Positions 22,752 to 59,693 of a stretch of 64,000 bases of DNA are shown one piece after another (position 1 is the first letter of the stretch; each line of letters starts with the position of its first letter). The notes under the pieces are model-generated. The model was not told the origin of the DNA. It did no database searches and saw only the letters and a list, made by a program, of their open reading frames with translations. The stretch lies in IMG/VR virus record IMGVR_UViG_3300038393_002936, one strand, 5' to 3'. Made by a program: the position numbers and the translations under genes. Source of the DNA: a virus.

Positions 22752-22831
22752 CTTCCCTGCCGGACCTTCGGTCCCGTCGGTTGCGCCGACTGTGGAAGCT
22801 TCGCTTCCGTTGACGAAGTCAACTGCCGGAA
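22752..22831 (-). repeat. 80-bp four-hairpin array inside a split TTCCGGCA...GGCAGGGAAG motif
   Basis: Minus strand: TTCCGGCA GTTGAC-TTC-GTCAAC GGAAGC-GAA-GCTTCC ACA GTCGGC-GCA-ACCGAC GGGACC-GAA-GGTCC GGCAGGGAAG. Confidence 0.9.
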
Positions 22832-22933
22832 CTGTATTTCCAGTGAACGGGCCGCCCCGGGACCGTTCACGCACGAAGGGCAGGAGCCAAGCCCCTACCC
22901 TCCGTTTGTTATTCACAAGTGGCGCAGCCACTC

Positions 22934-23974
22934 TTAGGCCCGAAGAGCGACGGTTGGGTCGGCGGGGTGACTTACAGTCAAAGTATTCCACCCTTGGTAA
23001 GAATATGTAATGGTCGCGTTCCCGCCGCCCCGGCCCGCGTTCCCGCCGCTCATGTTGACCGAGGTCAGGCGGTTTTGGGTGCCCATGTCGACCTTCGTCC
23101 CCTCCTGGGTGGCCACGTAAATGTGCTCGTCCTGGGTGTTCTGGTAGTTCGCATACACCCCGGCCTGGGTGGCGGCCACGTGGTCCCCATCCTTGGCCAT
23201 GATTTCGATGGCGGTCGTGGTTTCGACCGGGAAATCCACGTAGCGGAAGTAGGGCCCGAACCGCCCGAGTTCCAGCATGTCGTTCCGGCCGAACGAGGAC
23301 GAAATCCGGACTGACTGGATGCCCACGGTGAACGACCCGGACCCCGTGTCGTCGTTGGTCCCCGAGCTCGAAATCCCGTAGATGGACTTCGGCCACAGGC
23401 ACCCCGACATAATCATATTCTGCCGGCGGTTGACCCCTTCCGGGGCGGCCGGGGAAGGGCTCGACACGCCCATCCCGGCGGTGAACCCCGTGAAGCTGAA
23501 CGAGCCGGTCGCCCAGACCTTGTCGTTGCCGACGAGCGTGACGCTCTCGCGGCTGGCCCCCTGGACCTGGAAGTCGTAGCCCAGCTGCGACACGTACATG
23601 CCGCTGCAAATCACCTGCGAGAGCTGGTTCCCGCTGGCGGTCGCGTTCGTGTCGGCGAACACGCCAATCGCGATGTTGGCCCGCTGGTTCGACCGGCCGA
23701 CCAGGGTTCCCGCGGTCGCGCCCTGGGTGCAACTGTGCCAGATGAGCGGGTAGCCGTCCAGGCACTTCTCGAGGGTCACACTGATATCGGGTACGCCGTC
23801 GACATTCTGGTATACGGCCAACTGTCCGAGTTCGAAGAATTGTTCAGGATTAAAAGAGGTATTAATCCCGACACTCTGAACACCTCTTAAAGTCGTGTAA
23901 GAGGTCGGCGACAGGTCGTAGGAAGCAACCCCCACAGACTCAGCCGCATAATAGACTCTGTGATTCAAAGACAT
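22934..23974 (-). CDS. Major tail (tube) protein
   Basis: GVQSVGINTSFNPEQFFELGQLAVY...PDISVTLEK pattern with an internally duplicated fold; position after the neck genes. Confidence 0.75.
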   Translation of the reverse strand: MSLNHRVYYAAESVGVASYDLSPTSYTTLRGVQSVGINTSFNPEQFFELGQLAVYQNVDGVPDISVTLEKCLDGYPLIWHSCTQGATAGTLVGRSNQRANIAIGVFADTNATASGNQLSQVICSGMYVSQLGYDFQVQGASRESVTLVGNDKVWATGSFSFTGFTAGMGVSSPSPAAPEGVNRRQNMIMSGCLWPKSIYGISSSGTNDDTGSGSFTVGIQSVRISSSFGRNDMLELGRFGPYFRYVDFPVETTTAIEIMAKDGDHVAATQAGVYANYQNTQDEHIYVATQEGTKVDMGTQNRLTSVNMSGGNAGRGGGNATITYSYQGWNTLTVSHPADPTVALRA

Positions 23975-24034
23975 ATACTAATACCGCCTGTTTGTCTGGG
24001 GTAGTCTCTTCACCACTCCCATACACCAAGGCGG

Positions 24035-24973
24035 TCAAGCACCATCAACTTCCAGCGTCAACCTCACGGTCGACCACCACACTTTTCGGCCAATATTCTC
24101 ATTGTCGTGCGACGTGACTTCGGGCACGCGGATTTGCAGCCAGGGGTAGGTCTGGCACAACTGAGGATAGGTCAAAGCGGAGGGGGTCGGCCGCCCGTAC
24201 GGGTCGAGCGGGAGCGGGGCCGCATTGCGGTCGAACGACGGGATTCGCTTGTCCCGCTGTTTGACCAGCATCGCGTTCAGCCGCTTGCGGTCCCACGGGG
24301 TCTCGGCGAATACATGAACTAAAAAATTCTCGCTATAAATCTGGGCCTCGTTCCCGAGCTCGTACGGGTAACCGGTCCCGTTCAAGACGGATTCGACCAC
24401 CAGACACGGCAACTGAATGCGGTTCTGGGCCGGGACCGCCCAGGCCCCCGACGAGTTCGGCCCCCACTGCGGGTCGTCGGTCCGGAGGGAGCCCGCCAAC
24501 AGGGACTGAAACCACGGCTCGTCCGACCGGCGGACGCTCACGAACCGCGGGCTGTACGCGGCCTGGATGACGGTCCCGGTCGGCACGGCATTTTGGAAAA
24601 AGACCTGCCCCAGCGGGTAGTTCACGTAGTGGGCGTACGTGCCAGTTGTGGACGAGCTCGGGTAAAACGTGCCAGACACCCACAGGCCGCTCACCGGAAT
24701 CGGCTGGGTGTCGCGGGGGACCCCGCTCTCCCAGCACCAGTCGCCGCGGTGGGCTTGCCAGACGGTTCCGTCAGGGAAGCGAGGGTCGGCGGCCGGCTGG
24801 AGACGCGACCGGTCGCCCCCGTACGCCCCGAACTGGCCGACGCCCACGTTCTCGTAGGCCCCGACTTCCAGAAGTGCCCAGTTGAGCCACGCCGTTAAAT
24901 TGCCCTCCAGTTGTTCGGTGGGCAAATAGGACCCGTACTCGCCGATGCCGCCCTTGAACCCGTAATCGCTCAT
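24035..24973 (-). CDS. Putative tail terminator/completion protein
   Basis: Directly upstream of the tail tube gene; RIQLPCLVVE...FLVHVFAET..DR motif. Confidence 0.55.
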   Translation of the reverse strand: MSDYGFKGGIGEYGSYLPTEQLEGNLTAWLNWALLEVGAYENVGVGQFGAYGGDRSRLQPAADPRFPDGTVWQAHRGDWCWESGVPRDTQPIPVSGLWVSGTFYPSSSTTGTYAHYVNYPLGQVFFQNAVPTGTVIQAAYSPRFVSVRRSDEPWFQSLLAGSLRTDDPQWGPNSSGAWAVPAQNRIQLPCLVVESVLNGTGYPYELGNEAQIYSENFLVHVFAETPWDRKRLNAMLVKQRDKRIPSFDRNAAPLPLDPYGRPTPSALTYPQLCQTYPWLQIRVPEVTSHDNENIGRKVWWSTVRLTLEVDGA

Positions 24974-25632
24974 AACAGCTTTCGGGCCTCCCGCTCGAGG
25001 AACTGGAGCAGGCGGGGGGCAGCCAGTTCGGCGGCCCGGGTCAGCCAATTCGACCGGGCGGTCCCGGCGTACGCGGGCGGGACCCGGAACGGGGCGAGTT
25101 TTCCGCCGGCCTTACGTTTGGCCATAATCAGTCGGCCGGTCCGGCTGTAAGAGGGGTCGGCCCCGCTGAACAGCCCGTACTCGGTCAGCACGACGGTATC
25201 CCCGGCGAACAGCAACCACTTGAGCCACTCGACGGGCGACGACTGGCCCTTGGCGTTCGTCGACAGGTAATACGCCCCTTCGGCCCCCAGGGCGTCCCCG
25301 AAGTCCTCGCGGATGGCCCCGGCCCACACCCCACCTAGATACTCTCCTGCCGGAGGAATCACCTCAACCCGGGCGGCGACCTGAATGGCCCGGATAATCG
25401 AGGCGACAGCCTCCTTCCCGTCGACCACGCCAAACTCCTCGCGGAGTTGGCCGGCGACGAGCGAGCTGTACTCGGAGGTGGCACGCAGGGCTTCGGCAAC
25501 GGTCTCGCGGACTTCCGGCAGGAGAGTCTCAGCCAGGGTCCGTAATTTGGGTACGGCCTGCCGCTGGAGCTCAACCAGAATCTGACCGGGGAGGCGGGCA
25601 AGGTCGGCGTCGACCGTGACGGTGATGGCCAT
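24970..25632 (-). CDS. Putative neck/tail completion protein
   Basis: Translationally coupled within the head-tail cluster. Confidence 0.5.
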   Translation of the reverse strand: MAITVTVDADLARLPGQILVELQRQAVPKLRTLAETLLPEVRETVAEALRATSEYSSLVAGQLREEFGVVDGKEAVASIIRAIQVAARVEVIPPAGEYLGGVWAGAIREDFGDALGAEGAYYLSTNAKGQSSPVEWLKWLLFAGDTVVLTEYGLFSGADPSYSRTGRLIMAKRKAGGKLAPFRVPPAYAGTARSNWLTRAAELAAPRLLQFLEREARKLL

Positions 25633-26123
25633 TATGGAGCCCGCTTCCACTGTGTAACGACGAACACACCCTGGACGATGTTCGACACGTCCACGGGGTC
25701 GTCGTCCCGGACGTACATCCACCGGGCGACCGCGTCGAGCTCGGGCTGCAACTGGAGCCGCTCGGCGGCCCGGAGTTTAGGGAGGTCCGTTAAATACCCC
25801 TTGGTCTGAATGGTCCCGTCGGGAATCTGGACGTTCGGCGGGGGCTTTTTCCAGAAGTCCTTGGGGTGGACGGCCACGCCCATCTTGAGCGTCTCGGTCA
25901 CCTCCTTCGCCCGGAACCCGTTCCCCCCGCACAGCGGGCAGGTCGTCACGTCGCCGGGCGGGGCCGGGCCGCCGCTCAGCCAGACGTTCCCCGCACACCC
26001 GCACGCCTCCTGGGTCGGCGGATAAAACAACTTGCAGTTCTTGCCCAGCTCGGTAATCAGGTCCTCCAGGGCCTGCTGGGTGACCGATTTGATGGCCGGA
26101 GTGAGAGTGAAGAGAACTCCCAT
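25632..26123 (-). CDS. Putative head-closure protein with Zn finger
   Basis: CGC...CPLCGGNG; head-tail cluster position. Confidence 0.5.
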   Translation of the reverse strand: MGVLFTLTPAIKSVTQQALEDLITELGKNCKLFYPPTQEACGCAGNVWLSGGPAPPGDVTTCPLCGGNGFRAKEVTETLKMGVAVHPKDFWKKPPPNVQIPDGTIQTKGYLTDLPKLRAAERLQLQPELDAVARWMYVRDDDPVDVSNIVQGVFVVTQWKRAP

Positions 26124-59069: not shown

Positions 59070-59089
59070 ACAGTCTCTTCGTGAATTAT

Positions 59090-59168
59090 TTCCGGCAGTT
59101 GACTTCGTCAACGGGACCGGAGGTCCGGCAGGCGGCTTTGCCGCCGTCAACGAAGCTGACCAGGGAAG
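59090..59168 (+). repeat. Four-hairpin array in a split motif
   Basis: TTCCGGCA GTTGAC-TTC-GTCAAC GGGACC-GGA-GGTCCG GCA GGCGGC-TTT-GCCGCC GTCAAC-GAA-GCTGAC CAGGGAAG. Confidence 0.9.
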
Positions 59169-59218
59169 CCAGGGTTCTTCAGGGATGATTTCGATTGTGC
59201 CAACCGGAGTGAAACGAC

Positions 59219-59587
59219 GTGAGATTTGACCGCCTTACCCTCCTCGCCTCTTTCCTCGAATCCGACCATGTGCCAGAGGCACACTTCAATCTGGAGAACT
59301 GGGAGTGCGGCACCACCGCGTGTGCGTGCGGCTGGGCCGCTCGAATTCCCCAATTCAAGGAATCAGGATTCAAACTAAGCTCATTAGGTAATCCGCTCTT
59401 TGAAGAGTTTTCTCGCTGGGACGCCGTAATGAGGTTCTTTGAACTGAACAGGAGCCAGGCCGAGTACCTGTTTTTGGCCAGGTGTTACAAAGGTGGTTAC
59501 CAAACCACCAAGTGGGAAGTCGCCGAGCGTATTCGGGATTTCGTGGAGGTGAACCGCCTGACACCATCACTTACTACTGAGTGCTGA
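59219..59587 (+). CDS. Hypothetical protein, family P4
   Basis: WECGTTACACGWA...EVAERIR. Confidence 0.7.
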   Translation: MRFDRLTLLASFLESDHVPEAHFNLENWECGTTACACGWAARIPQFKESGFKLSSLGNPLFEEFSRWDAVMRFFELNRSQAEYLFLARCYKGGYQTTKWEVAERIRDFVEVNRLTPSLTTEC

Positions 59588-59613
59588 CGCACTCAAGCTA
59601 TTCTAAGAAGACT

Positions 59614-59693
59614 TTCCGGCAGTCGTCTCCGACGACGGGAGCGAAGCTCCCACAGTCGGCTTTGCCGACAGGACCGGAGGTCCGGCAGGAGAG
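59614..59693 (+). repeat. 80-bp four-hairpin array, homolog of 22752-22831
   Basis: TTCCGGCA GTCGTC-TCC-GACGAC GGGAGC-GAA-GCTCCC ACA GTCGGC-TTT-GCCGAC AGGACC-GGA-GGTCC GGCAGGAGAG. Confidence 0.9.

What the first reader, a model, noticed from the sequence alone, without database searches (positions are those of the whole stretch)
22752..59693. Tandem arrays of covarying triloop mini-hairpins inserted into a fixed DNA motif
Seen in sequence: at six loci the motif TTCCGGCAGGRRAG is opened after CA/CAG and filled with 2 or 4 abutting ~15-nt hairpins (6-bp stem, 3-nt loop, nearly always closed C..G). The loci are 9133-9170 (right half of the motif incomplete), 22752-22831 (-), 31790-31835, 57021-57067, 59090-59168 and 59614-59693. 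The two 80-bp copies, 37 kb apart, align without gaps and differ by compensatory pairs: GTTGAC/GTCAAC vs GTCGTC/GACGAC, and GGAAGC/GCTTCC vs GGGAGC/GCTCCC. Loops are mostly GAA/GGA/GCA or the complements TTC/TCC, plus TTT and one TCT. They usually alternate, so the first hairpin of a pair has its purine loop on the bottom strand and the second on the top. Established: C(GNA)G triloops such as d(GCGAAGC) are unusually stable and nuclease-resistant in ssDNA rather than RNA, and N4 virion RNA polymerase promoters are short triloop DNA hairpins. Inference: this is a DNA-level structure, either the product of a site-specific hairpin insertion/expansion process or a signal read on ssDNA or cruciforms. 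It does not match any element I recognise.
Basis: partly seen in the sequence, partly recalled or inferred. Interest (0 to 1): 0.92.

Follow-up and report, generated by a model that had tools for sequence, protein, structure and literature searches.

The report
Tiny hairpin element parasitising phage word
A soil phage carries a 33-base, gene-less piece of DNA made of two small hairpins that inserts precisely into a 14-base word repeated throughout its genome, even inside an essential gene, and is present or absent between sister strains, making it one of the smallest mobile DNA units seen in a virus.

Summary
The unit is not a single hairpin but a 33-bp module: two abutting 15-nt hairpins plus 3 nt, equivalently 30 nt between two CAG copies. 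There are 13 units at 10 sites in the window. Nearly all sit in the genome-wide 14-bp word of a large tailed phage (50 copies with up to 2 mismatches). The module is mobile. A sister strain has the portal-gene site empty (exact 33-bp in-frame difference, and outgroups match the empty length), has one extra unit at 59115, and fills a site like the empty one at 61014. Stems covary (9 of 12 pairs), and the second loop is GNA on the motif strand in 18 of 20 units, a DNA-type hairpin. A phage with 52% portal identity has the word but no units, so the word is probably older. The closest known cases are cyanobacterial SDR5 in HIP1 and mitochondrial double-hairpin elements. No mobilising enzyme was found in the roughly 74 kb seen of 166 kb. 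I favour copying as folded single-stranded DNA guided by the motif halves; HUH-type strand transfer is the main rival. This scan noted analogous, apparently unrelated hairpin inserts in other genomes.

The parts
31798..31830 (+). 33-bp unit in frame inside the portal gene (gene on - strand; adds 11 aa); register after CAG, destroys the word
   Evidence: empty in L003/L005, exact 33-bp gap; outgroup segment lengths 52-66 aa, empty allele 59, filled 70
31790..31835 (+). split target word around the portal unit
22758..22823 (-). two-unit (66-bp) array; sister strain has one decayed unit here
59098..59163 (+). two-unit array (33 + 32 bp); sister strain has three units (extra 33 bp at 59115)
59622..59687 (+). 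two-unit (66-bp) array; last hairpin differs from the sister strain by a paired stem change plus a GGA/GTA loop change
57029..57061 (+). single unit, left half of the word decayed, right word regenerated
9143..9173 (+). unit with shortened second hairpin; right half of the word missing
5924..5959 (+). decayed unit, second hairpin intact (GCA loop)
61014..61027 (+). empty word; the matching position in the sister strain (L018:13490) is filled, but only 16 bp of upstream flank is shared
184..61027 (.). genome-wide target word TTCCGGCAGGRRAG, 50 copies with up to 2 mismatches, on both strands, also in coding DNA
31292..33574 (-). portal protein ORF that hosts one unit
   Evidence: (phrog_2739, E 2.7e-05)

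Best explanation
A gene-less, site-specific mobile DNA module of 33 nt that parasitises the phage's genome-wide 14-bp word. SHOWN: it is gained and lost as exact 33-bp steps at the CAG centre of the word, singly or in tandem; structure and length are conserved while sequence varies; the common form ends by regenerating a full word on its right, so that the site can be hit again and the word's role is kept. INFERRED: it moves as single-stranded DNA during phage replication and recombination. The two hairpins fold, which brings the two halves of the word into register so that they can pair with an empty word elsewhere. This gives a four-way-junction-like intermediate (two 6-bp arms and a 3-nt bulge), which is fixed by replication or by general phage recombination nucleases without a dedicated transposase. 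The GNA loops keep the single strand folded and nuclease-resistant, and the length of 33 keeps reading frames open. Loss is by slippage or recombination between the flanking repeats. I put mobility at about 0.85 and this route, given mobility, at about 0.6.
For: Empty/filled portal alleles with outgroup polarity. Unit-number differences. Second empty/filled case, weaker. In-frame copies in three more ORFs: window ORF ending at 53299, L018:13277-13531, and the DUF3560 gene of L027. The word without units in 32 kb of a 52%-identity phage. Left word halves decay while right ones mostly stay intact. For a homology-driven route: three loci share the same two-unit block with the same damaged internal word, so 66 bp moved as one piece; the sister strain's variant hairpin matches the neighbouring inverted unit over 17 nt; the 59115 difference joins the first hairpin of one unit to the second of the next; the target is the whole 13-14-bp word, not a tetranucleotide; no HUH, reverse transcriptase or recombinase hit in the part seen (and the Pfam columns). 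An ERCC4-domain nuclease is encoded.
Against: Homology arms of only 8-13 nt are short for recombination. About 55% of the genome was not seen, so a dedicated enzyme may lie there or in the host. No two of 20 units are identical (closest pair 2 differences, mean 10.7), so no donor-recipient pair is identified. The strict strand preference of the second loop is also what protein recognition would give. Only two strains were compared.
Confidence: 0.52

Rival explanations
1. The same mobile unit, but moved by a dedicated single-strand transferase (HUH/Y1 type such as a group 3 REP-associated transposase or IS200/IS605 TnpA, or a tyrosine recombinase making one strand exchange). The enzyme binds the GNA hairpin, excises a 33-nt dumbbell-shaped circle and inserts it at the CA/CAG of the word.
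For: Strand-specific GNA loop in 18 of 20 second hairpins; fixed geometry. Group 3 TnpA-REP enzymes act on short perfect hairpins, lose activity when the loop is reverse-complemented, and one cleaves at CA (PMC8266576).
Against: No GTAG tag on the units; hairpins abut the junctions directly; the target is 13-14 bp whereas Y1 enzymes use 2-5 nt (established knowledge); 66-bp blocks and half-unit swaps occur; no HUH motif in a plausible ORF in the part seen.
Confidence: 0.28
2. The hairpin pairs are selected cis-acting DNA signals of the phage (ssDNA promoter, primase site or a cruciform switch that competes with protein binding to the word); their presence/absence is a by-product of shuffling of regulatory modules.
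For: The second hairpin includes the first three bases of the word, so extrusion would open the site. Units cluster in early-region intergenic modules. GNA mini-hairpins serve in N4 promoters and in G4 and ssiA priming signals (PMC13037366).
Against: In-frame insertion into the portal that destroys the word; both orientations; several decayed copies; absent from a relative that shares the word.
Confidence: 0.14
3. Each insert is made anew at a break in the word (fold-back synthesis or capture of stable oligonucleotides during end joining), so that the units are scars and not copies.
For: All 20 units differ; fold-back synthesis would give paired changes for free; the CAG duplication fits a staggered cut.
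Against: Units share a consensus (78% mean column identity), a fixed order of two hairpin types and shared two-unit blocks, which implies descent from a template.
Confidence: 0.06

Closest known systems
SDR5, small dispersed repeat of Nostocaceae that inserts into HIP1 (Elhai et al. 2008; known here through PMC5861425 and PMC4390886; the original was not held)
   Same: Very small gene-less repeat inserted at a precise position inside a highly over-represented genome-wide word; mobilising enzyme unknown. From memory: structure conserved by compensatory changes.
   Different: SDR5 is chromosomal and confined to Nostocaceae, and its target is a palindromic octamer. From memory it is 21-27 nt and was proposed to move through RNA. 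Here it is a phage, a non-palindromic 14-mer, 33 nt, a CAG duplication, a regenerated target and DNA-type GNA loops.
Double-hairpin elements of Allomyces mitochondria and GC clusters of yeast mitochondria (PMC2800124, PMC4478555)
   Same: Short GC-rich hairpin elements with presence/absence between relatives, merging and shuffling of units; GC clusters have short target duplications.
   Different: Organellar. Allomyces elements lack flanking duplications. The target is not a genome-wide functional word. No strand-specific GNA loop is described in the passages read.
REP/REPIN/BIME with TnpA-REP (PMC8266576, PMC3733652)
   Same: Short perfect DNA hairpins, some with 3-nt loops, in pairs and arrays; some REP families sit inside a target motif; intragenic copies exist.
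   Different: No unpaired GTAG or CGTC tag, not a symmetric doublet, no spacer, no associated transposase gene seen, low copy number, phage-borne.
N4 virion RNA polymerase promoters and G4/ssiA mini-hairpins (PMC13037366)
   Same: 5-6-bp stems with GAA/GGA triloops closed by C-G.
   Different: Those are fixed single signals; these are paired, polymorphic, in either orientation and inside genes. No N4-type polymerase was seen (the 3020-aa ORF is a tape measure protein).

Membership tests
SDR5/HIP1-type small dispersed repeat | precise insertion inside an over-represented genome-wide word | tested here: met
SDR5/HIP1-type small dispersed repeat | structure kept by compensatory change (feature recalled from memory) | tested here: met
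SDR5/HIP1-type small dispersed repeat | target is HIP1 and host is Nostocaceae | tested here: not met
   target is a non-palindromic 14-mer in a tailed phage; it works like SDR5 but is not a member
SDR5/HIP1-type small dispersed repeat | sequence similarity to SDR5 | not testable with these tools
   original paper not held
REP/REPIN | unpaired GTAG or CGTC tag 5' of each hairpin | tested here: not met
   alignment and flanks; GCAG precedes only the first hairpin and belongs to the target
REP/REPIN | associated RAYT/TnpA-REP gene | tested here: inconclusive
   none in about 74 kb of 166 kb; host genome unknown
IS200/IS605 non-autonomous derivative | insertion 3' of a 4-5-nt target with no longer specificity, subterminal hairpins set back from the ends | tested here: not met
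   nearly all units lie in the 13-14-bp word and hairpins abut the junctions
Classical MITE | terminal inverted repeats | tested here: not met
   the ends are not inverted copies; each hairpin is self-contained
Classical MITE | short target duplication and empty sites | tested here: met
   CAG(G) repeated on both sides; empty allele in L003/L005
Mitochondrial double-hairpin element | two adjacent hairpins with presence/absence polymorphism | tested here: met
Mitochondrial double-hairpin element | organellar location, no flanking duplication | tested here: not met
   phage; duplication present
N4-type ssDNA promoter | cognate virion RNA polymerase gene | tested here: inconclusive
   none in the part seen
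N4-type ssDNA promoter | transcription start next to the hairpin | not testable with these tools
Stoperator (for the target word) | orientation bias with respect to transcription (from memory) | tested here: not met
   27 co-directional, 22 opposite
Known RNA family | Rfam match | tested here: not met
   0 hits at gathering score

The most novel reading that the evidence does not exclude
A 33-nt DNA that spreads with no transposase of its own by folding into a Holliday-junction mimic on an empty copy of a repeated protein-binding word, so that the phage's own annealing and resolving enzymes write it in. This would be a minimal structure-only replicator and a natural form of precise, frame-preserving, site-directed insertion.
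Probability: 0.3. Interest if true: 0.88.

Novelty: new variant of a known kind. Interest (0 to 1): 0.66.

Why it matters
How elements under 50 nt move (SDR5, double-hairpin elements, GC clusters) has been open for about two decades. This case gives a defined target, natural empty and filled alleles, an in-frame hit in an essential gene, and a strand-specific DNA loop rule, all in a 166-kb genome whose small gene set limits the candidates. It also marks the centre of the phage's unexplained genome-wide word as a point of breakage or exchange, a handle on what reads that word. Limits: the phage and its host are uncultured, the element was found in only two sister strains, and the enzyme is not identified.

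Tried and rejected
Rfam and tRNA scans: nothing. No own genome is held, and the sister contigs are not searchable as handles. Pattern scans of IMG/VR for the word-plus-hairpin, inverted word pairs and both unit types: 0 hits. The one pattern scan of bacterial species genomes was also empty, but its pattern fits only one unit subtype, so host-chromosome copies are not excluded. GenBank phages and plasmids: only chance matches. A covariance model found nothing in 941 kb of distant relatives or in five virus records. The capsid query found no prophage relative in species genomes. The two HNH-like ORFs (19455-20438, 36241-37446) were considered as mobilisers. They are not conserved in the sister strain's alignments, and the Atlas gave only unnamed or HNH clusters for the second, so neither is linked to the units. 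The 282-aa orphan at 41396-42244 has only three weak unnamed relatives. Rejected: spliceosomal-type intron (the portal unit starts GT and ends AG but on the non-coding strand); CRISPR spacer (no repeat duplication); intrinsic terminators (none called at the units); the word as an insertion footprint (in coding DNA it is accommodated by codon and residue changes without gaps). The Sissivirus preprint was read in outline only and describes a different, large-scale repeat expansion.
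Full report
Setting. The window is part of a large tailed phage: tape measure 10210-19272, terminase 33575-35803, portal 31292-33574 and capsid 27099-28133 on the minus strand, and a run of small plus-strand genes from about 40 kb. Proteins identical to window proteins lie on a 165,690-bp JGI contig. The host is unknown; a distant portal homologue is annotated in a Gemmataceae assembly, which is only a hint.

The observation. All six arrays are present as described and exceed shuffles (4 clusters against a mean of 0.2). The word TTCCGGCAGGRRAG occurs 22 times exactly and 50 times with up to two mismatches, on both strands without transcriptional bias (27 versus 22). In coding DNA it is accommodated by codon and residue changes rather than by insertion, and its core is better conserved than its flanks between strains. 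A profile and a covariance model add four more units, giving 13 units at 10 sites.

Anatomy. Every unit is hairpin 1 (15 nt), hairpin 2 (15 nt) and 3 nt, or equivalently 30 nt between two CAG copies; one unit is 32 nt. There are two registers. In the common one, hairpin 1 starts at the G of the CAG and hairpin 2 folds back onto the first three bases of a regenerated word, so that a full word survives on the right. In the other (portal, 59131), the unit follows the CAG and the word is destroyed. Across 16 distinct units, 92% of cells pair and 9 of 12 pairs show changes on both sides. Hairpin 2 has a GNA loop on the word strand in 18 of 20 units, with all four middle bases; hairpin 1 mostly has the complementary type. 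Such loops are exceptionally stable and nuclease-resistant in DNA and much less so in RNA (PMC13037366). The standard folding model also returns the separate hairpins for three of the four arrays tested. All 20 units differ in sequence.

Mobility. A sister strain (90-98% identical in aligned blocks) settles this. Its portal lacks exactly 11 residues, and the DNA shows a clean 33-bp gap that restores the word. Twelve more distant portals have 52-66 residues in the segment where the empty allele has 59 and the filled one 70, so this is a gain. At 59115 the sister has an extra 33 bp, six hairpins against four. At 22763 it has one decayed unit against two intact ones. It has a filled word where the window's 61014 copy is empty, though the upstream genes share only their last residues, and a further two-unit array in a cassette that the window lacks. 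Units also lie in frame in three other ORFs. A phage with 52% portal identity carries the same word about 20 times in 32 kb with no unit, which suggests that the word is older and the unit is a later passenger. That sample is small.

Mechanism (inference). A filled strand paired with an empty complement would loop out the two hairpins with no gap: a four-way junction with two 6-bp arms and a 3-nt bulge. I think the unit is copied this way as single-stranded DNA during phage replication and recombination, then fixed by replication or junction cleavage; the phage encodes an ERCC4-domain nuclease. Four observations point to homology-driven exchange: a two-unit block with the same damaged internal word at three loci, a hairpin swapped for one matching a neighbouring unit, a length change that joins halves of adjacent units, and specificity for the whole word. 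Against it, the arms are only 8-13 nt. The main rival is a dedicated single-strand transferase: group 3 REP transposases recognise short perfect hairpins in a loop-orientation-dependent way and one cuts at CA (PMC8266576). No such gene was found in about 74 kb, but more than half the genome and the host were not seen. A regulatory role is possible for some intergenic copies but cannot explain the portal insertion.

Comparison. The closest precedent is SDR5, which inserts between the third and fourth bases of the cyanobacterial HIP1 word and is confined to Nostocaceae (PMC4390886, PMC5861425). Mitochondrial double-hairpin elements and GC clusters are the structural analogues. It fails the defining tests for REP (no tag), classical MITE (no terminal inverted repeats) and IS200/IS605 derivatives (long target). 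I found no copy outside this phage and its sister (the bacterial scan was narrow) and no paper describing such an element in a phage. Other windows of this scan report analogous, apparently unrelated hairpin inserts; these are unchecked notes and were used only as leads.

Verdict. The feature is real, mobile and of a known kind, but a new variant: phage-borne, aimed at a non-palindromic genome-wide word that it regenerates, 33 nt long, with a strand-specific DNA loop rule. Interest 0.66. It would be 0.88 if it proves to move with no dedicated enzyme as a junction mimic (probability about 0.3).

Noticed in passing
window 51152, 56513, 57182, 57882, 61223 (+): Short GAA mini-hairpins directly before start codons, preceded by a degenerate left half of the word and a Shine-Dalgarno-like run; the hairpin is absent at the 61223 orthologue in L018.
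   Followed up: partly
window 26144-26160: A single 7-bp-stem triloop hairpin outside any word copy, absent from the sister strain (16-17 bp).
   Followed up: partly
window 56313-56379, 57054-57131, 59680-59743: Inverted pairs of the word enclose a second repeated motif with a C-run followed by TTAA (about 10 copies).
   Followed up: no
L018:11068-11810: The sister strain has an extra 133-aa gene between two such composites; the window joins them, as if the cassette was lost or gained by recombination at the repeats.
   Followed up: partly
L003:6509-9955: The sister terminase gene carries an intein with a LAGLIDADG domain that the window's gene lacks.
   Followed up: no
window 19455-20438 and 36241-37446: Two HNH/endonuclease-VII-like ORFs that differ from what the sister strain has at the same places.
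   Followed up: partly
window 9167-10238: Fic-domain gene and HTH gene pair next to the 9143 unit.
   Followed up: no
L111 and L113: A 68%-GC phage with 52% portal identity has the same genome-wide word, including inverted pairs and one site at the same codons as in the window.
   Followed up: partly
L015:6690-6715: In a 46%-identity relative a 6-bp triloop hairpin identical to one of the window's first hairpins abuts a variant of the word; no 33-nt register and no model hit.
   Followed up: partly
window 41396-42244: 282-aa protein found only in this phage and its sister, with three weak distant relatives.
   Followed up: partly
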